Source: a virus (taxonomy: Duplodnaviria; Caudoviricetes). Taken from it: a stretch of 64,000 nt of DNA. The position numbers and the translations under genes are program-made. Under the pieces are notes generated by a model. The model was not told the DNA's origin, did not search any database, and worked only from the letters and a program-made list of their open reading frames with translations. Positions 25,758 to 59,526 of the stretch are shown here, piece after piece (positions within the stretch are counted from its first letter, which is position 1; every line of letters begins with the position of its first letter). Location: positions 227,103 to 291,102 of the IMG/VR virus record IMGVR_UViG_3300018430_000021. The stretch is one strand, 5' to 3'.

Positions 25758-26291
25758 CTAAACTCCTTTGTATCTGTCGTAAATTTCCTTTACCGTATCA
25801 GGGAAAGTTCCCCAGCCGCTGAGAAAATAAAGATTAATGAGCTTTCCAGCAGTTCCGTACTTGACAAACTGTCTTACGCCACTAGAAGACATATGTTCAG
25901 AATGTGCCGGTGTCGTAAAGAATACGTACTGAAGCGATGCAGGACTTTCAGAAAGGCAATAGTTATATTCCATCTGAGTCTTTTCGAATTCAAGATCCGT
26001 TCCATTACGGAGTCCGCGAACAATATAACCAATATTGTTTTCAAAGCAAAAATCGACAAGAGCTTCTGGAGTATACTGAACAGAAACCTTGTCGGACCAA
26101 TCATAACCTGTAGTCATTTCCCTAATCCACTTCATACGGAGAATCGGATTAATAGGATATGACTTTTCAGGATTTTCTGCAATAAGAACAATAACTCTGT
26201 CAAATACCTGTGCGGCTTGACGAATTACATGAAGATGTCCCGGGTGAACGGGATTGAAAGAACCTGGATAAACAGCAATTTTTTCACTCAT
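25758..26291 (-). CDS. coaD: phosphopantetheine adenylyltransferase
   Basis: AVYPGSFNPVHPGH, IVRGLR...D.EFE, SSSGVR motifs. Confidence 0.9.
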   Translation of the reverse strand: MSEKIAVYPGSFNPVHPGHLHVIRQAAQVFDRVIVLIAENPEKSYPINPILRMKWIREMTTGYDWSDKVSVQYTPEALVDFCFENNIGYIVRGLRNGTDLEFEKTQMEYNYCLSESPASLQYVFFTTPAHSEHMSSSGVRQFVKYGTAGKLINLYFLSGWGTFPDTVKEIYDRYKGV

Positions 26292-50449: not shown

Positions 50450-50523
50450 TGGACACATATGGGATTCGAACCCATGACGTTTTCCCTGCCAGGGAAACAT
50501 TCTACCAACTGAATTAATGGCCC
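50450..50523 (-). tRNA. tRNA-Ala(GGC)
   Basis: Loop CTGGCAG; acceptor with a 1-nt bulge. Confidence 0.85.
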
Positions 50524-50617: not shown

Positions 50618-50691
50618 TGGACACATATGGGATTCGAACCCATGACGTTCTGCGTGCAAAGCAGACATTCTACCAACTGAATTAATGGCCC
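50618..50691 (-). tRNA. tRNA-Ala(TGC)
   Basis: Loop TTTGCAC; body identical to 50450..50523 apart from the anticodon arm. Confidence 0.85.
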
Positions 50692-50917: not shown

Positions 50918-51031
50918 CTACCTGATCCTATGCACTGTATTTGAATCAAATGCTTCAAACGCTGCAGCTGCAAATTCAGCTGCGGCACGTTCTGCTGCAA
51001 AAAATTCATGTTCAAATACGTTCATAGTCAT
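50918..51031 (-). CDS. leader peptide MTMNVFEHEFFAAERAAAEFAAAAFEAFDSNTVHRIR
   Basis: RBS AAAGGT; 10 Ala, 6 Phe and 5 Glu out of 37 residues. Confidence 0.88.
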   Translation of the reverse strand: MTMNVFEHEFFAAERAAAEFAAAAFEAFDSNTVHRIR

Positions 51032-51215
51032 TTTGTTACCTTTTGTTATTATATATAAAAATTTTTTTCCTGTTTTTGCAAAAGTTTGATTCGGCCAATG
51101 GACTCCATCCAAAGTTTTACGTCAGCTCTGCACCGAATCATCTGATGCATCAGTTATGTGTTAAATATAGTAAAAAGTTGTTGGTTTGTAAACCCCTTTT
51201 TAAAATATTTTTTCG

Positions 51216-51327
51216 TGGGGAAGGCAGGATTCGAACCTACGACACACGCCTTGGAATGGAAATAGGAACGTTATATGCATTTCTACGAAACGTAAATACC
51301 GTTGCTCTACCACTGAGCTACTTCCCC
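51216..51327 (-). ncRNA. tRNA scaffold with the module inserted in the anticodon arm
   Basis: Canonical acceptor, D- and T-arms; about 40 extra nt containing GCATATAACGTTCCTAT. Confidence 0.7.
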
Positions 51328-51332
51328 GAGTG

Positions 51333-51644
51333 GTTAACGCGAAATGTATGAACTCATCTAAAAAATAATGCTTTTGATAGGAACATTCTTTGCGTTAACG
51401 ATGTTAAATATAGTAAAAAGTTGTTGGTTTGTCAACCCCTTTTTTAAAATATTTTTAGCCGGCGAGACTGGATTCGAACCAATAACCCAAAGTACCCTTT
51501 AGATAGGAAGCATTGGTGCTGAAAGCGAATACTAAATCTTAAACTTTTGCTCTACCGATTGAGCTACTCGCCGAGATGTTAACGCGAAATGTATAAACTG
51601 ATCGAAAATAATGTTTTTTTGATAGGAACATTCTTTGCGTTAAC
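51333..51644 (-). repeat. two copies (51333-51399, 51578-51644) of a ~67-nt hairpin RNA carrying the module, each after its own promoter
   Basis: GTTAACGC...GCGTTAAC ends; GCAAAGAATGTTCCTAT in both. Confidence 0.8.
51459..51573 (-). ncRNA. tRNA-Pro-like scaffold with the module inserted in the anticodon loop
   Basis: CGGCGAG/CTCGCCG acceptor; AAAGT/ACTTT stem around an insert with GCACCAATGCTTCCTAT. Confidence 0.7.
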
Positions 51645-51684
51645 AGGGTTAAATATAGCAAATTGCTTTGTGTTTGTCAACCGC

Positions 51685-53022
51685 TTATTGTAACTTTTTT
51701 TCCTCCTTCAAGTTTTTTCTGGAACGTTCTTTTTGTTCTTCAAGTAACTTGTTGAAACCGTCAAGGTCAACGGTAAGGTTATGCTGTTCACAAAGCATTT
51801 GTGTCAAGTCGACAGGAAAACCATAAGTATCATAAAGCTTGAAAGAATCAAAACCAGACAATACATTTCCATCCATCTTGGAAACAATATTGTTAAACTG
51901 CTTGATTCCGCTATCAAGGTTCTTCAAGAATCTTGATTCTTCATTCTTGATAACTTCAGTTACGAATTCTTGTCTTTCCTTAATTTCCGGATATACGTCA
52001 CCCATTACGTCGATAACAACCGGAACGAGCTTATACATAAACGGTTCATTGATATTTAACATCTTGCAGAACAAAGAACCTCTGCGAAGAAGCCTTCTCA
52101 ATACATATCCGCTTCCCTTATTAGAAGGCTGAAGTCCGTCAGTAATAGAAAATACAAGAGAACGAATATGGTCACTGATAACCCTGTGAGGCGTGCCGGA
52201 TTCATCATTCTTATATTCTACACCGCTAAGTTCAACAATCTTATCAATAAGTGGTTTAAACAAGTCGGTTTCATAATTACCGTTTGTATTCTGAAGAATA
52301 GAACAAATACGTTCAAATCCCATACCGGTGTCGATATTCTTCGTAGTCAACGGAATAAGCGTTCCATCAGAAAGTCTTTCTTTCTCCATGAATACAATAT
52401 TCCAGATTTCTACGTAACGGTCATTTTCACCGTTTACACCAAGGATAGGATCCTTGAATGTTTCTTCTTGAGTATTCAAATCGCCACGGTCATAATGAAT
52501 TTCAGAACAGGGACCGCATGGACCAGTATCACCCATTTCCCAGAAGTTATCTTTTTCTCCGAATCTCATAATACGGTCATCAGGTAGATTGGAAACTTCC
52601 TTCCAGATTTTCCAACTTTCATCATCGGTCTTATAAACAGAAACAAACAATCTTTCCTTAGGTAACTTCCATACTTTCGTTAAAAGCTCCCAAGACCAAG
52701 AAATAGATTCCTTTTTATAATAGTCATTGAAAGACCAGTTTCCAAGCATTTCAAAGAACGTATGATGATAGTTATCACGACCGACAACATCGAGGTCATT
52801 ATGCTTTCCAGATACACGTAAGCATTTCTGGCTGTTACATACACGTTTTAATCCTTGCGGGTTTTGACCAAAAAAGATTGGTTTAAACTGGTTCATTCCG
52901 GAATTCGTGAATAACAACGTCGGATCGTTATTGGGAATAACGGAAGAAGACTTGATAAACTGATGATTTTTTGACATAAAGAAATCAATAAAACTTTTTC
53001 TAATTTCGCTCGAGGTAAGCAT
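51685..53022 (-). CDS. alaS: alanyl-tRNA synthetase, aminoacylation and tRNA-recognition domains only; contains no Ala
   Basis: DPTLLFTNSGMNQFK, HHTFFEMLGNWSF, GPCGPCSEI, IDTGMGFER, GYVLRRLLRR, FKLYDTYGFP; ends before the editing domain. Confidence 0.95.
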   Translation of the reverse strand: MLTSSEIRKSFIDFFMSKNHQFIKSSSVIPNNDPTLLFTNSGMNQFKPIFFGQNPQGLKRVCNSQKCLRVSGKHNDLDVVGRDNYHHTFFEMLGNWSFNDYYKKESISWSWELLTKVWKLPKERLFVSVYKTDDESWKIWKEVSNLPDDRIMRFGEKDNFWEMGDTGPCGPCSEIHYDRGDLNTQEETFKDPILGVNGENDRYVEIWNIVFMEKERLSDGTLIPLTTKNIDTGMGFERICSILQNTNGNYETDLFKPLIDKIVELSGVEYKNDESGTPHRVISDHIRSLVFSITDGLQPSNKGSGYVLRRLLRRGSLFCKMLNINEPFMYKLVPVVIDVMGDVYPEIKERQEFVTEVIKNEESRFLKNLDSGIKQFNNIVSKMDGNVLSGFDSFKLYDTYGFPVDLTQMLCEQHNLTVDLDGFNKLLEEQKERSRKNLKEEKKLQ

Positions 53023-53035
53023 TTTTATTCTCCTA

Positions 53036-53070
53036 TAAAAATTAAAAGGTTCCTGTTGTGCACAGGAACC
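53036..53070 (-). terminator. terminator in the alaS leader
   Basis: GGTTCCTGT-GCACA-ACAGGAACC followed by TTTTAATTTTT, just before the alaS RBS. Confidence 0.8.
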
Positions 53071-53105
53071 AAAGTTTAGTTAATGAATATACCCATACAC
53101 ATATA

Positions 53106-53165
53106 TTATGTCATAATATATGCGGCTGCTGCGAAAATGCGAGTATTTAATATATTCATCGTCAT
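53106..53165 (-). CDS. alaS leader peptide MTMNILNTRIFAAAAYIMT
   Basis: GCA GCA GCC GCA run; MTMN start shared with the Ala/Glu/Phe leader. Confidence 0.8.
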   Translation of the reverse strand: MTMNILNTRIFAAAAYIMT

Positions 53166-53628
53166 GTCTTAAATATATATAATTTTTCTATTTTTGTAAA
53201 TGCTTTTTATTCAGGATGTTTGATGTCTTCTATTTCTCGTACCATGTCTCTTTCCGGGCTTTCTGAATTTTCATCCAAATAACGACCAGTAAGAATCATA
53301 GTATCATGGTCGGTAAATTCAAGATTCGGTTTACCTTCGGCCATATTCTCATAGTCCTCAGTAACAAGGTCTCTCCAAGAAGTATAACCGATTTGGTCCC
53401 AATTCCTATCGAAGAATTGGACTGCATTAGTTCCAACTTCCTTGGCGACAACTGCACCGAACATTCCATCCTTTCGCATTATAGATAAACCAGAAATGAA
53501 TTTACCCTTTTTGGTGGCACAAGAATGCATAATCTTCAACGGCTTATTCTCAAAAACAATTCTAAGCATACCGAAAATATCAAGTGCCTTTACCGGATGT
53601 TCAACAGTTTTAATTTCTGGAAGTTCCA

Positions 53629-54162
53629 TTAGTATTCAAGCTCCTCTTTATATCCGGCTAAAAGTTTTGCACGGACTTCATCAAGAACCTTACCAAGGCG
53701 GTTTTCGCCTTTCCAGTTTGCCTCGTCATTAATCAACGGGTCAAATTCACCGAGACCGACACCCCAGATTTTGTCAACCGGACTAGCTTCGACGAATTTC
53801 TTACCTTCAAGGGCAGGATCCGTAATCTTGTCGAACAGAATCTTATTCTGACTATACTTACTCAAACATGCGTTGAGCATGATATTGTAAGAAATCTTAT
53901 TCCATTCGTCCTGATTAAAACCTTCGACCATACGGCCAAGCTTCTTGGCCTTATAGGAATCAGCTTCCTTGAAATTAAGAGCTTCAATTTCATTCAGCGT
54001 AGCCATATCGTTAAAACAATATGCCTTATGCCACATATAGCATTGTTCAGAACTGAAAAATTCATGAATCTGCCCGTCAAGACACTTGGTCTTCATCGGT
54101 GCCCAAGCGAAATTTGACGGCCAGTCGCCCCAAAATAAAATGTGCTTATCTGTAATTGTCAT
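53629..54162 (-). CDS. NADAR (YbiA-like) family protein
   Basis: SNF, SSEQCYMWHKA..F.D, KKLGR.V, EASP.DKIWG.G, GENRLG..L..VR. Confidence 0.9.
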   Translation of the reverse strand: MTITDKHILFWGDWPSNFAWAPMKTKCLDGQIHEFFSSEQCYMWHKAYCFNDMATLNEIEALNFKEADSYKAKKLGRMVEGFNQDEWNKISYNIMLNACLSKYSQNKILFDKITDPALEGKKFVEASPVDKIWGVGLGEFDPLINDEANWKGENRLGKVLDEVRAKLLAGYKEELEY

Positions 54163-56962
54163 ATTAAATAAACCAAATAATTGAAGATTTACCGGATTCT
54201 TTAAGTTCAATTTTGTCGTAAACTTTACGTATTCTTGTAATCTGCCAAAGGAATGCATCACATGTTTTGGCGTAATCATTTTCGTCAATTACATTAGTAA
54301 ATGGAATAGGCGTTTCCTCAGACAGCTTTACATCTGTAAATTTAGTTTCATCAAGCTTATAGTACCAGGCTGGCATTTTCTTCAGAAACTTATTAAATGT
54401 AAATTCAGAATCCTTATTATAAAGTTTACTATGCAAATACAAATGCAATTCGACCAAATCTTCAATAGAAAGAATGAAACCGGTATTATACTGTTTTTCG
54501 TTTGAAGCTTTTTCGATTATCTTGCATCCACGTTTCTTAAGGAACTTAACAGCTTCCTTTCTTAACATAATGCGGGTAAGCTTTACAATATAATGCTCGT
54601 TGGCCTTGTTTCCAATGACAGGAGAATCTTCCTTGAATAAAGCCATATCGTTGAGCTTTTCAAGTGAATTACAATATACTGTCATCGAAAGCTCGTCGTT
54701 ATACAACTTATCAATCAATGCAAGATAACGTTTAAGCTTTTTGTTTTCGACAATACTATAGAAATCACTACAGTAAATGCCAGAACCTTCTTCACGAACA
54801 TTATACATTCTTTGATAGACATAAAACGCCAAAGATTCACGTTGACATTCATAGGTGCTTACTATTCTTGATAGTTCATATTTTGACATTTGTCATCACC
54901 CTTTAAGACAATTTAATTCGAGAATATCTTTTAATGCAAATAAATGATTATTGAAAGTATCAATATTTTTTATTTTTAAAAGTTCTCGTATAGTTTTTTC
55001 GTTGCGTTTCATATTAATAACAGCGTACCAAATTGGTTCCTGTGTATCAGCAGTCTTAAGAACCCAAGTACGGGAATTTGGTACTTCTGTTACCGAAGGA
55101 TAGTGTAAATCTGGAGTATTATATGACAATGGATATAAAACATACTTTCCACCGTTTTCTACACGGCAGATAAGCTTATATGACAATTTACTCCAAATGT
55201 TCCAGGCCATTACTTAACTTCTGACTTTAAGAGTTCATCATAGCGCTCACGAATATCGGCGCTGAGTTCCTTGCGTCCTTCGACAGCAGAAGAATGAGAA
55301 GCCCAGAACGAAATGAGGATAAGCAGGGTAACGAACGGACCCATGCAGATACCCATAGCGGCGAGCAAAACATTAATAGCATTATCGAGCTTGACACGCT
55401 TAAAGATTACACATGCGTTAAAGATACCGCACAGAATCCAAAGAATTGTACTGATTTCCATATTAGTTTTCCTTTTCTGTATTGTTTAACTGTTCAGTTT
55501 CTTGAGTATCAACATATTGACACGTAATTCGATTAATCTTGACCTTAGACATAAAATATTCAGCCATGTCAAGAGTAAATTCTTCATAAACTTTCGGATT
55601 GTTATGACAGATAGATTCAAACAGTTCCTTATAGAGCTTCTGAATATCCTTTTCATAAACATATTCTACATTTGTAAGATACTTGATTGTCAGACCAACA
55701 GCGTCCTGCAATCTCATATCCGGAAAAGCATCATTAATGGATGAATAAATCTTAAACAACTTCTGGTGAACGTTGTCCAGTTCCTTATAGACCTTTTTGA
55801 GGTAATGCTTGAGAGTAAACTTATAATTTACTGGAATGCTCATTTTCTTTGTAAATACATAGCATTCATAAGTAAGTTCATAATAATTAATACTGAACTT
55901 TGCAACTAGCTGTTGGTCTACATAGCAATTAATGTACTGATATGGTGAATTGACACGTTCCTCAAAGGTAACGCGATCCTTACCGAAAACATCAGTACAA
56001 ATCTTTTTAAAGTATGTTGCATTAATTACGAACATTTTATCCCCTAGTCGTCAGCATCAAGCCAGCCTTTATGTTTCGCCACATCGTATGTAGCAGTAAT
56101 AATGGATTCAATAGTTTCATCATACTTGTCCTGAAGTAAAAACTTGATATGACTCAAAAACATCTTTTTCGCCTTATCGTCATTGTTCTTTGACTGTCTC
56201 AAGTTTTCTTCGAGAACTTCTTTAAAATATTGATACATCAATTACCACCTGATAATAAAATCGTCTGCAGGTTGCTTAAGATATTCATCTTTCTTAAATA
56301 GCTCATGACAAGCACCGCCGAGTTCTTCACCCAGCCACGATAACGCATTACAAAGATTTCGCCTTTCAACATCATTAAATTCAAGAGGCTCGCCAAGCTT
56401 AAGCTTCAAGTAAAGCTTATTCATATTCTTGCGATGCCAGCTTTCTTGTAAACTGTTCCATGCTTCGTCTGTCATAATACTACCTTAAACATAATATAGC
56501 AAACTATACTAAGTTCGTCAACCCTCTAATATGTCCAACGTCTGTTCAATCTTTTTATTCTGCTGTTCGATATAATACTTCTTAAGAAGCGCCATCATCT
56601 TTTCATATTCTGCGGTAAACATTTCCGGCCAGTTTTTAACATTGGTAGAAACATAAGTACATTCTTTCGATATGTTAGATAATATAAGTTTGTTTCTCAT
56701 ATCCAATCCGCCGATATGTGTAAACTTATATCCATGACGCGGAATATAACGAATCATTATATTCATGCCAGGAAGTCTAGTATTACGAAAGAATAACCCG
56801 CAAAAAATAGGATGTTCGATTACCCCGCTTACAACCGGACCGCCATAAATCTGGTCATTATAAAATCCATCTGTCTGATGCGGTATTCCACGTAAATCGA
56901 AAAAATCTTCAGCCATTTTCAGCTCAGAATTAAACGCATCTAACGCAGCCATACTATCGATT

Positions 56963-59413: not shown

Positions 59414-59526
59414 TCGGAGAGGCACGGCTCGAACGTGCGACCTGCGGGTTATAAGCCATTAATAGGAACAACCTGTGCCATGAGCGGGTAGTAAAGTACG
59501 CTGCTCTACCACTGAGCTACTCTCCA
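59414..59526 (-). ncRNA. tRNA scaffold with the module inserted in the anticodon arm
   Basis: Canonical acceptor, D and T arms; insert with GCACAGGTTGTTCCTAT. Confidence 0.7.

What the first reader, a model, noticed from the sequence alone, without database searches (positions are those of the whole stretch)
53036..53165. Poly-Ala leader peptide and terminator upstream of alaS
MTMNILNTRIFAAAAYIMT is followed by an inverted repeat over its stop codon (CATATATTATG-A-CATAATATATG) and then a terminator directly before the alaS RBS. This is pheST-like attenuation, coupling an Ala sensor to an Ala-free enzyme. I cannot identify the antiterminator pairing here, so the mechanism is less clear than in the tRNA operons.
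Basis: partly seen in the sequence, partly recalled or inferred. Interest (0 to 1): 0.8.

Follow-up and report, generated by a model that had tools for sequence, protein, structure and literature searches.

The report
Alanine-sensing attenuator before phage alaS
A giant gut phage places its alanine-free alanine-charging enzyme behind a tiny test gene with four alanine codons and a transcription stop, so it probably makes the enzyme only when charged alanine tRNA runs short.

Summary
It comprises a 19-codon ORF (53165-53106, MTMNILNTRIFAAAAYIMT), a perfect 11+1+11 palindrome over its stop codon, and an intrinsic terminator (53070-53048 plus U tract). The terminator ends 2 nt before the AGGAGA ribosome site of a 445-aa AlaRS catalytic fragment with 0 alanines.

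New findings:
- The ORF starts exactly 6 nt after the -10 of a promoter of the phage's own 77-member family. Ten long ORFs start at that same position, so the leader is probably leaderless.
- The leader is a shortened paralogue of the phage's Glu/Ala/Phe tRNA-operon leader. Start codons, the Phe-Ala4 codons and the terminator are kept; the rest is replaced.
In constrained folds it forms when a ribosome sits on the Ala codons and not when it sits on the stop.

Weak points: this pairing is modest (-10.1 kcal/mol, against about -18 in the tRNA-operon leaders), no orthologous leader DNA could be fetched, and there is no direct expression evidence.

My reading is a pheST-type leader-peptide attenuator that senses Ala-tRNA(Ala), confidence about 0.65. 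Earlier notes of this scan already report codon-matched leaders before phage tRNA and synthetase genes, in this genome and on other DNA. I found no paper on it.

The parts
53172..53200 (-). Promoter TTTACA-17-TATATT of the phage's own promoter family. The predicted transcript start is at or next to the leader ATG.
   Evidence: One search lists it (10 of 12 matches). One search finds 77 TT[GT]ACA-N16-18-TATATT sites in the genome against 0-5 in 20 shuffles; this is one of them and shares the extended TATATTTAA.
53106..53165 (-). Leader ORF MTMNILNTRIFAAAAYIMT plus its stop codon, probably translated from a leaderless mRNA. The sensor codons GCA GCA GCC GCA lie at 53132-53121.
   Evidence: Searches give the sequence. 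In one search the ATG lies exactly 6 nt after the -10, as at 12 of 77 promoters, 10 of which open ORFs of 95-182 aa. In one search, GCN x4 occurs at only 5 sites in 291 kb. In one search, codons 10-15 match the Glu/Ala/Phe leader at 16 of 18 bases.
53083..53160 (-). The 1:2 structure (anti-antiterminator and possible pause hairpin). The inner hairpin is the 23-nt palindrome 53122-53100; the fold extends it by one pair at each end, to 53124-53098. The outer stem pairs about 53160-53149 with about 53094-53083.
   Evidence: One search gives the minimum-energy and centroid structure (z = -4.7). One search shows the perfect 11-bp-arm palindrome is non-random.
53058..53100 (-). Candidate antiterminator. 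GUGUAUGGG (53100-53092) pairs with CCUGUGCAC (53066-53058), and AACUAA (about 53081-53076) pairs with UUGGUU (about 53072-53067). Together they sequester all 9 bases of the terminator's 5' arm.
   Evidence: In one search it is the minimum-energy structure (-10.1 kcal/mol) when bases up to 53118, 53109 or 53106 are masked and RNA polymerase has reached 53058; it is lost (-2.4 and -1.7) when the mask reaches 53094 or 53091. In one search, 3 of 2000 shuffles do as well on both energy and arm pairing.
53036..53070 (-). Intrinsic terminator: stem-loop GGTTCCTGTGCACAACAGGAACC followed by UUUUAAUUUUUA.
   Evidence: One search lists it. In one search the hairpin folds at -15.5 kcal/mol. In some searches it is 23 of 23 identical to the terminator of the tRNA-operon leaders in L001-L007.
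51685..53034 (-). Ribosome site AGGAGA (53034-53029) and alaS (ATG 53022 to stop 51685): a 445-aa AlaRS catalytic fragment with no alanine.
   Evidence: Searches give the protein and its Pfam match. In one search it aligns over residues 2-443 to the crystallised catalytic fragments 1RIQ and 3HXU. Searches show 0 Ala here and in 14 other listed cluster members.

Best explanation
This is a ribosome-mediated (leader-peptide) transcription attenuator that makes alaS expression depend on slow decoding of alanine codons.

Inferred course of events:
1. Transcription starts from the phage promoter at 53200-53172, at or next to the A of the leader ATG.
2. A 70S ribosome translates the leaderless 19-codon ORF.
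3. If Ala-tRNA(Ala) is plentiful, the ribosome runs to UAA (53108-53106). There it covers most of GUGUAUGGG (53100-53092), so the terminator (53070-53048) folds and transcription stops 14 nt before the alaS start codon.
4. If no ribosome loads, the 1:2 hairpin holds the same bases and termination again follows.
5. If Ala-tRNA(Ala) is scarce, the ribosome stalls on GCA GCA GCC GCA and covers the 5' arm of the 1:2 hairpin. The freed 3' half pairs with the 5' arm of the terminator, and RNA polymerase reads on into alaS.
6. Because the AlaRS fragment contains no alanine, it can be made in exactly that condition.

Shown: the sequence anatomy, the promoter family and its spacing, the paralogy, the fold statistics and the Ala-free enzyme. 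Inferred: the transcript start, translation of the ORF, stalling, and switching in vivo.
For: - Anatomy and fold: (z = -4.7).
- Promoter: the only family-type promoter for alaS lies upstream of the terminator, and the terminator's U tract ends 2 nt before the ribosome site, so every alaS transcript must pass the terminator.
- Leaderless start: 12 of 77 family promoters have an ATG exactly 6 nt after the -10. Ten of these open ORFs of 95-182 aa, and the alaS leader is the eleventh. A further promoter has its ATG 7 nt after the -10; the 177-aa ORF it opens (25758-26291) matches PHROG and cytidylyltransferase profiles from residues 1-4.
- Switch: in constrained folds the antiterminator forms with the ribosome on the Ala codons and not on the stop. 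Three of 2000 shuffles are as good.
- Family resemblance: the four tRNA-operon leaders of the same genome have the same layout, with leader codons matched to the downstream tRNAs, an antiterminator strand at the ORF end and then a terminator.
- Paralogy with mosaic conservation against the Glu/Ala/Phe leader: codons 1-5 match at 12/15, codons 6-9 at 4/12, the Ile-Phe-Ala4 codons at 16/18, the middle at 21/46 and the terminator at 22/23 (23/23 against L001). By my reading of alignment A2, an in-frame 6-nt gap removes Glu-Arg and joins two Ala pairs.
- Codon match: the leader uses GCA three times and GCC once. The phage carries tRNA-Ala(UGC) three times and tRNA-Ala(GGC) once, about 1 kb downstream of the alaS stop.
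- Enzyme: 0 Ala in 445 residues here and in all 15 listed cluster variants (94-99.8% identity among the 14 of 445 aa). The 4 Ala of P0131 lie in its extra C-terminal 48 residues, as printed. Fibrobacter homologues have 31-35 Ala in the same span.
- RNA libraries: contigs from two RNA libraries bridge the leader and terminator (X16 at 52819-53342; X17 at 53000-53230).
Against: - The antiterminator is modest: 9 bp with 3 G-U pairs plus a 6-bp helper stem, at -10.1 kcal/mol. The terminator hairpin folds at -14.3 to -15.5, and the antiterminators of the four tRNA-operon leaders at about -18.
- In a broader framing that includes the Ala codons, 27 of 500 shuffles did as well.
- If pairing across a stalled ribosome is allowed, the outer stem (-12.0) competes with the antiterminator (-11.1) for ribosomes on Ala3 or Ala4.
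- Unlike the tRNA leaders, the stop codon lies 5 nt before the antiterminator strand rather than after or inside it. Occlusion by a terminating ribosome therefore rests on an assumed footprint of 12-15 nt.
- There is no Shine-Dalgarno sequence, and the transcript start is only predicted.
- The RNA contigs that cover the leader also run upstream of the predicted start (to 53230 and 53342). They may be DNA carry-over, and contigs cannot show RNA ends.
- No orthologous copy of this leader could be fetched, so there is no test of covariation or codon conservation across strains.
- The paralogue may be young, so retained features could partly reflect lack of time to decay.
Confidence: 0.65

Rival explanations
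1. The leader is a decaying duplicate of the Glu/Ala/Phe tRNA-operon leader. Only the terminator (and perhaps the promoter) still works, as a constitutive partial stop that keeps alaS expression low. The Ala codons and the ORF are relics and sense nothing.
For: The leader is clearly a shortened paralogue that has lost the 16-nt stretch carrying the Shine-Dalgarno sequence of the tRNA leaders. Its antiterminator is much weaker than theirs and sits after the stop codon. The alaS cassette is absent from the related loci L001-L007 and from the one whole record that could be searched, the 20.9-kb fragment G001 behind L001, so it may be recent.
Against: Conservation is mosaic rather than uniform. 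The start codons, the Phe-Ala4 codons and the terminator are kept (12/15, 16/18, 22-23/23), while codons 6-9 and the middle are replaced (4/12, 21/46). By my reading, the internal gap is in frame and removes the Glu codon. The lost ribosome site is replaced by an ATG at exactly the leaderless position used by 10 long ORFs. A new perfect 11-bp-arm hairpin has arisen over the stop codon. The two base differences in the antiterminator strand (GTGCATAGG to GTGTATGGG, my own comparison) both keep pairing as G-U.
Confidence: 0.2
2. The 23-bp palindrome is a DNA operator for a repressor, possibly AlaRS itself as recalled for E. coli alaS autoregulation. The terminator is then an independent, unregulated element.
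For: A perfect 11+1+11 palindrome lies 43 bp downstream of the predicted transcript start and is non-random. That E. coli AlaRS represses its own promoter through a palindromic site is recalled from my own knowledge; I read no paper on it here.
Against: The palindrome lies inside the transcribed leader and inside the ORF, well downstream of the promoter hexamers. It fits the 1:2 position of an attenuator. The phage enzyme is only the catalytic fragment. This reading gives the Ala codons no role and offers no way past the terminator.
Confidence: 0.05
3. Read-through of the terminator is controlled by a trans factor rather than by a translating ribosome. Candidates are a phage RNA-binding antiterminator protein or an uncharged tRNA, T-box-like.
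For: The terminators of three tRNA leaders and of the alaS leader share a G(G/A)TTCC core. This resembles the GUUCCUAU of a repeated RNA module described in an earlier, unchecked note of this scan.
Against: No Rfam family reaches its threshold in the leader. The best match is E = 0.17 at 22.8 bits against a gathering score of 49.9, and there is no T-box match. The codon-to-tRNA matching of all the leaders in this genome points to ribosome sensing.
Confidence: 0.07

Closest known systems
pheM-pheST leader-peptide attenuator of E. coli, and the predicted classical attenuators before trpS2 and leuS in Streptomyces (PMC1262725: abstract and passages read; details of pheST are recalled)
   Same: A short ORF carrying codons of the enzyme's own amino acid precedes an intrinsic terminator ahead of an aminoacyl-tRNA synthetase gene, with alternative antiterminator and terminator hairpins. 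Both sense the charged cognate tRNA.
   Different: This one senses alanine, and my searches found no Ala leader or alaS attenuator. It lies in a phage. The leader ORF is probably leaderless. The regulated enzyme is a truncated AlaRS purged of the sensed amino acid. The element derives from a tRNA-operon attenuator.
The phage's own Glu/Ala/Phe tRNA-operon leader (window 51031-50859) and its orthologues in L001-L007
   Same: It is a paralogue. It has the same MTMN start, the same Phe-Ala-Ala...Ala-Ala codon block, the same terminator sequence and a homologous antiterminator strand (GTGCATAGG against GTGTATGGG).
   Different: The tRNA leader has 37 codons and senses Ala, Glu and Phe. It has a 5' UTR with an AAAGG ribosome site. 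Its stop codon lies after the antiterminator strand, its antiterminator folds at -18.1 kcal/mol, and it controls tRNA genes rather than a protein gene.
trp operon attenuator (trpL) of E. coli (textbook knowledge, recalled)
   Same: Both have a four-region logic. The regulatory codons sit just before or in region 1, the stop codon sits between regions 1 and 2, the terminator is more stable than the antiterminator so the switch is kinetic, and termination also follows when no ribosome loads.
   Different: It regulates a synthetase rather than a biosynthetic operon. The leader mRNA has no 5' UTR. It is much more A/U-rich. There is no sequence relationship.
Polycysteine leaderless short ORFs of mycobacteria (bioRxiv 10.1101/834739; title and start of abstract seen in the listing)
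   Same: A leaderless short ORF with a run of codons for one amino acid acts as an amino-acid-responsive attenuator of downstream genes.
   Different: Those sense cysteine and control cysteine-metabolism operons in a cellular genome. I did not read that paper's mechanism.

Membership tests
Classical ribosome-mediated (leader-peptide) transcription attenuator | A short ORF in the 5' leader enriched in codons for the sensed amino acid | tested here: met
   The 19-codon ORF has four consecutive Ala codons. GCN x4 occurs at only 5 sites in 291 kb.
Classical ribosome-mediated (leader-peptide) transcription attenuator | An intrinsic terminator between the leader ORF and the regulated gene, downstream of the promoter | tested here: met
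   A 9-bp stem with 5 G-C pairs plus a U tract lies at 53070-53036. The promoter lies at 53200-53172.
Classical ribosome-mediated (leader-peptide) transcription attenuator | An antiterminator that is mutually exclusive with the terminator, and whose formation depends on where the ribosome sits | tested here: inconclusive
   A candidate is present and behaves as required in constrained folds; 3 of 2000 shuffles are as good. It is weak, however, at -10.1 kcal/mol. In another framing 27 of 500 shuffles did as well, and the outer stem can compete with it.
Classical ribosome-mediated (leader-peptide) transcription attenuator | The leader ORF is translated | not testable with these tools
   The only evidence is indirect. 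The ATG lies at the position used by leaderless genes. One gene with its ATG 7 nt after the -10 has its true N-terminus there, confirmed by profile matches.
Classical ribosome-mediated (leader-peptide) transcription attenuator | Read-through rises when the cognate charged tRNA is limiting | not testable with these tools
   RNA-library contigs bridge the terminator but show neither ends nor conditions.
T-box riboswitch | A match to the T-box covariance model, with specifier loop and T-box sequence | tested here: not met
   There is no T-box match at the gathering threshold, nor up to E = 10 in the leader.
Alanyl-tRNA synthetase (class II, tRNA-synt_2c), for the regulated gene | The aminoacylation and tRNA-recognition domain is present and complete | tested here: met
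   Pfam PF01411 matches at E = 1e-183 over residues 6-443. The protein aligns over residues 2-443 to the 1RIQ and 3HXU catalytic fragments at E about 1e-144.
Alanyl-tRNA synthetase (class II, tRNA-synt_2c), for the regulated gene | Editing domain and C-terminal domain of full-length bacterial AlaRS | tested here: not met
   The ORF ends at residue 445. The Pfam match covers profile positions 1-437 of 552 and no tRNA_SAD match is listed. Fibrobacter homologues are 878-881 aa long from the match start.

The most novel reading that the evidence does not exclude
The leader and the enzyme together form a rescue circuit that can start from zero. The sensor stops terminating when Ala-tRNA(Ala) disappears, and the enzyme it releases needs no Ala-tRNA(Ala) to be made. 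On this reading the phage built the circuit by duplicating and trimming its tRNA-operon attenuator. The reason would be that alanine charging regularly collapses in the infected Fibrobacter cell, through a host defence or the phage's own shut-off aimed at AlaRS or tRNA-Ala. That would point to a still unknown attack on alanine charging during infection.
Probability: 0.3. Interest if true: 0.85.

Novelty: new variant of a known kind. Interest (0 to 1): 0.68.

Why it matters
Leader-peptide attenuation of synthetase genes is known (pheST; predicted for trpS and leuS). An alanine sensor was not found in my searches, nor one in a phage, nor one that starts on a leaderless mRNA and is joined to an enzyme stripped of the sensed amino acid.

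If it works as read, the phage monitors charged tRNA-Ala directly and answers with an enzyme that can still be made when that tRNA is missing. This would be a compact, testable example of a translation rescue circuit. It would also hint that alanine charging is a contested point in phage-host conflict in the rumen.

The element also shows how an attenuator can be retargeted. A duplicated multivalent tRNA-operon leader was trimmed, by an in-frame deletion, to a single amino acid.

The promoter looks sigma-70-like and the element is only 165 bp long. It could therefore be tested directly in a purified transcription-translation system.

Tried and rejected
- Orthologues of the leader: none could be obtained.
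  - The search for related loci with P0001 in viral contigs found nothing.
  - The alignment A1 in metagenome contigs gave 597 pattern matches, none of them a relative.
  - A1 in genome contigs returned only cellular AlaRS genes, the best being two Fibrobacter MAGs at 67-68% identity.
  - The terminator 23-mer found 1 viral and 6 metagenome loci. All seven are tRNA-operon leaders, and none holds alaS or the upstream gene.
  - The record of L001 holds no alaS; the records of L002-L005 were not held.
  - A degenerate pattern for the FAAAAYIMT codons found nothing in viral contigs.
  - The tools warn that records very near the window's genome may be left out, so these blanks do not show absence.
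- Strain variation from laid contigs: no substitution is listed between 52921 and 53231 in four runs. However, 88 rows were hidden, so I draw no conclusion on conservation. The X17 contig at 53000-53230 shows 2 other letters and 1 gap in 231 nt, against 12 in 200 nt for the upstream gene. This is a weak hint only. A 1-nt deletion in the T run at 53022 shortens the spacer between the ribosome site and the ATG in 3 of 4 runs.
- Second promoter-like site (ATGACA-17-TATATT, 53114-53086): rejected as the working promoter. Its -35 departs from the family, and a transcript starting there would carry the terminator without the antiterminator strand.
- Ala codons as antiterminator: GCAGCAG can pair with CUGUGC. 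I rejected this as the main switch because a stalled ribosome would cover those bases.
- T-box or any other known RNA family: none found.
- Low-Ala proteins elsewhere: the 244-aa ORF with 1 Ala is a putative rhamnosyl transferase. It shows no link to this circuit.
- G3:U70 in the phage tRNA-Ala genes: by my reading of the printed ends it is clear in 2 of 4. The acceptor stems of the other two did not pair as printed, and I did not pursue this.
- Literature: the searches returned no paper on an alaS leader peptide, a phage synthetase attenuator or an alanine-free AlaRS. Supplements were closed and not consulted.
Full report
**Setting.** The window is the last 64 kb of a single-contig virus record of 291,102 bp with 38.7% G+C. 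ARAGORN finds 44 tRNA genes in the genome, 33 of them in the window. Genes in this part run on the minus strand. The nearest cellular relatives of its AlaRS are two Fibrobacter MAGs, from horse faeces and rumen, at 67-68% identity. Public runs that hold the stretch are faecal, bovine-gut and sheep-gut metagenomes. The element is therefore a giant phage of the herbivore gut, probably of Fibrobacter (inference).

**The observation.** Read on the minus strand, the finding is exactly as described.
- ATG at 53165 opens MTMNILNTRIFAAAAYIMT, which ends at TAA 53108-53106.
- The four Ala codons GCA GCA GCC GCA lie at 53132-53121.
- The palindrome CATATATTATG-A-CATAATATATG spans 53122-53100 and holds the stop codon in its 3' arm.
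- GGTTCCTGTGCACAACAGGAACC (53070-53048) plus TTTTAATTTTTA is the one strong terminator-like site on this strand in 51000-55000.
- AGGAGA (53034-53029) and the alaS ATG (53022) follow at once.

The 135-nt leader folds at -36.9 kcal/mol, against -21.0 +/- 3.4 for 200 shuffles (z = -4.7, none as good). Runs of four or more GCN triplets occur at 5 sites in the whole genome, and two of them are this leader and the Glu/Ala/Phe tRNA leader. Perfect inverted repeats with arms of 11 or more and loops of 5 or less gave 23 rows at about 16 sites, against 0-1 in block shuffles. By my reading of the rows, this is the only one that is not an A-run/T-run bidirectional terminator.

**The gene behind it.**
- The 445-aa product matches Pfam tRNA-synt_2c at E = 1e-183, covering profile positions 1-437 of 552.
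- It aligns over residues 2-443 with the crystallised catalytic fragments of Aquifex (1RIQ) and E. coli (3HXU) AlaRS. It is thus the aminoacylation plus tRNA-recognition fragment, without editing or C-terminal domains.
- It has no alanine, while 323 non-overlapping ORFs of the genome average 5.4% Ala. The binomial probability is 1.7e-11.
- Among the 120 best homologues returned, only one other protein (94% identical) is Ala-free.
- All 15 listed members of its 54-member cluster have 0 Ala in the 445 residues. The 14 members of 445 aa are 94-99.8% identical to each other.
- The Fibrobacter proteins run 878-881 aa from the match start and have 31-35 Ala in the first 445 residues.
- In 22 columns, at least 3 of 4 close homologues have Ala. 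The phage enzyme has mostly Ser there (10 of 22).

**The promoter and how the ORF can be translated.** The phage has a sharply defined promoter family, TT[GT]ACA-N16-18-TATATT. I count 77 sites, against 0-5 in 20 shuffles. The site at 53200-53172 belongs to it and shares the extended TATATTTAA.

The leader ATG has no Shine-Dalgarno sequence, which at first argued against translation. However, 12 of the 77 promoters have an ATG exactly 6 nt after the -10 hexamer. Ten of those open ORFs of 95-182 aa, one opens a 7-codon ORF followed by a normal ribosome site, and the twelfth is the alaS leader. For a further promoter with the ATG 7 nt after the -10, the 177-aa ORF (25758-26291) matches a PHROG profile from residue 1 and cytidylyltransferase profiles from residues 2-4. 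That ATG is therefore the real start. Leaderless genes are thus routine in this phage, and the leader ORF sits at their exact position. The transcript start itself is predicted, not measured.

**Family resemblance within the genome.** I found these leaders before consulting earlier notes. Each tRNA block of this genome lies behind a promoter, a short ORF and a terminator, and the ORF is rich in the amino acids of the tRNAs that follow:
- MTMNVFEHEFFAAERAAAEFAAAAFEAFDSNTVHRIR lies before Glu, Ala and Phe tRNAs.
- MKTLSLTLLLLSSLLLSWLLRRSLVGTK lies before Trp, Leu and Ser tRNAs.
- MTKFVVDTHDCKTRRDGRGFGKHDKDRHKHRVI lies before Asp, Lys, Gly and His tRNAs.
- A Tyr/Cys/Ser/Met-rich frame lies before Tyr, Cys, Met and Ser tRNAs.

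In all four, the last codons of the ORF are complementary to the 5' arm of the terminator. Folding from 8 codons before the stop through the terminator loop gives antiterminators of -18.1 to -19.0 kcal/mol. These take 6-10 of the 7-10 arm bases, and 0-2 of 500 shuffles do as well.

**The alaS leader is a paralogue of the Glu/Ala/Phe leader.** The terminator 23-mer occurs once more in the genome, in slightly altered form, in that leader. It occurs unaltered in the tRNA-operon leaders of seven related loci.

Alignment and segment counts show mosaic identity to the window's Glu/Ala/Phe leader:

| Segment | Bases matching |
|---|---|
| Codons 1-5 | 12 of 15 |
| Codons 6-9 | 4 of 12 |
| Ile-Phe-Ala4 codons | 16 of 18 |
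| 53120-53071 | 21 of 46 |
| Terminator | 22 of 23 (23 of 23 to L001) |

By my reading of the alignment, an in-frame 6-nt gap removes Glu-Arg and joins two Ala pairs, and the later Glu/Phe/Ala block is gone. What is kept is what an alanine sensor needs. What is lost is what would make it respond to Glu and Phe. The related loci L001-L007 carry no alaS (also for the one record held), and another ORF stands upstream in L004. The cassette is therefore specific to this lineage.

**The missing antiterminator.** GUGUAUGGG (53100-53092) can pair with CCUGUGCAC (53066-53058). It is the counterpart of GTGCATAGG in the paralogue, and the two differences both keep pairing as G-U (my own comparison).

I masked the RNA as covered by a ribosome whose A site is on Ala1 to Ala4, and ended the RNA at the terminator loop. 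The minimum-energy structure is then this pairing plus AACUAA:UUGGUU, at -10.1 kcal/mol, with all 9 arm bases taken. With the ribosome on the stop codon the pairing is lost (-2.4 and -1.7). With no ribosome the 1:2 structure forms instead (-22.6). In 2000 dinucleotide shuffles of the 38 nt before the terminator, 51 reached the energy, 57 reached the arm pairing and 3 reached both.

With the whole RNA present the terminator wins, so any switch must be kinetic, as is recalled for trp.

**Weak points.**
- The antiterminator is much weaker than in the four tRNA leaders.
- In a wider framing, 27 of 500 shuffles did as well.
- If pairing across the stalled ribosome is allowed, the outer stem (-12.0) competes with the antiterminator (-11.1) for ribosomes on Ala3 or Ala4. 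I consider such a stem sterically unlikely, and a second initiating ribosome would probably cover it, but this is inference.
- The stop codon lies 5 nt before the antiterminator strand, so occlusion depends on the assumed footprint.
- A second promoter-like site inside the hairpin would give a transcript that can only terminate. I take it as spurious.

**Other evidence.**
- No Rfam family, T-box included, reaches threshold.
- Contigs from two RNA libraries bridge the leader and terminator (X16 at 52819-53342; X17 at 53000-53230). Contigs cannot show RNA ends or strand, and DNA carry-over is possible.
- No substitution is listed between 52921 and 53231 in the four runs, but 88 rows were hidden, so I do not count this as conservation.
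- The leader uses GCA three times and GCC once. The tRNA block beginning about 1 kb downstream of the alaS stop holds tRNA-Ala(UGC) three times and tRNA-Ala(GGC) once.

**Comparison with what is known.**
- Classical attenuators before synthetase genes are described for pheST and predicted for trpS2 and leuS of Streptomyces (PMC1262725; abstract and four passages read).
- Leaderless short ORFs with a run of one codon act as attenuators in mycobacteria (10.1101/834739; listing and start of abstract only).
- Cognate bias, the depletion of an amino acid from the enzymes that make it, is described for biosynthetic pathways (PMC4209129; listing and start of abstract only).
- My searches found no paper on an alanine-codon leader, an alaS attenuator, an attenuated phage synthetase gene or an alanine-free AlaRS.

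**Earlier notes of this scan.** These are unchecked AI notes. They already describe the four tRNA-operon leaders and the Ala-free AlaRS of this genome, and similar leaders before tRNA and synthetase genes on other DNA. I reached the same reading of this genome from my own calls before opening them.

**Verdict.** I put 0.65 on a working Ala-tRNA(Ala)-sensing attenuator, about 0.2 on a relic with a plain terminator, and the rest on other controls. It is a new variant of a known kind. The interest lies in the pairing of a sensor with an enzyme freed of the sensed amino acid, and in what that implies about alanine charging during infection.

Noticed in passing
window 51031-50859, 29304-29152 and 45480-45317; genome 215310-215100 (11.8 kb before the window): Each tRNA block lies behind a promoter, a leader ORF rich in exactly the amino acids of the downstream tRNAs, and a terminator. 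The terminator's 5' arm is complementary to the last codons of the ORF. The antiterminators fold at -18 to -19 kcal/mol, and 0-2 of 500 shuffles do as well.
   Followed up: partly
genome 215310-215215 (outside the window): The Tyr/Cys/Ser/Met leader has an in-frame TAA after codon 8: MTHQLYTY*CSSICGCSTSSIYGMYIIKTGG*. I did not examine whether it is read through.
   Followed up: no
whole genome; for example window 59399, 31181, 27423 and 26327: The promoter family TT[GT]ACA-N16-18-TATATT has 77 sites. At 12 of them an ATG lies exactly 6 nt after the -10, and 10 of those open ORFs of 95-182 aa. Leaderless mRNAs therefore seem common in this phage.
   Followed up: partly
window 51459-51573, 51216-51327 and 59414-59526: Rfam tRNA matches of 112-115 nt mark tRNA genes interrupted by an insert of about 40 nt. 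At least the first two have their own promoter.
   Followed up: no
window 50451-50523 and 50619-50691: The acceptor stems of two of the four tRNA-Ala genes do not pair cleanly as ARAGORN prints them. The other two have a clear G3:U70.
   Followed up: no
window 53629-54288 (minus strand): The 219-aa ORF two genes upstream of alaS has a NADAR domain (Pfam PF08719, E = 5e-34).
   Followed up: no
L004 10770-10845: ARAGORN reports a tRNA with a four-base anticodon (ggaa) next to tRNA-Phe in a related phage's Glu/Ala/Phe block.
   Followed up: no
window 53022-53027: In 3 of the 4 laid runs, one T of the T run between the alaS ribosome site and the ATG is missing. This shortens the spacer from 7 to 6 nt.
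   Followed up: no
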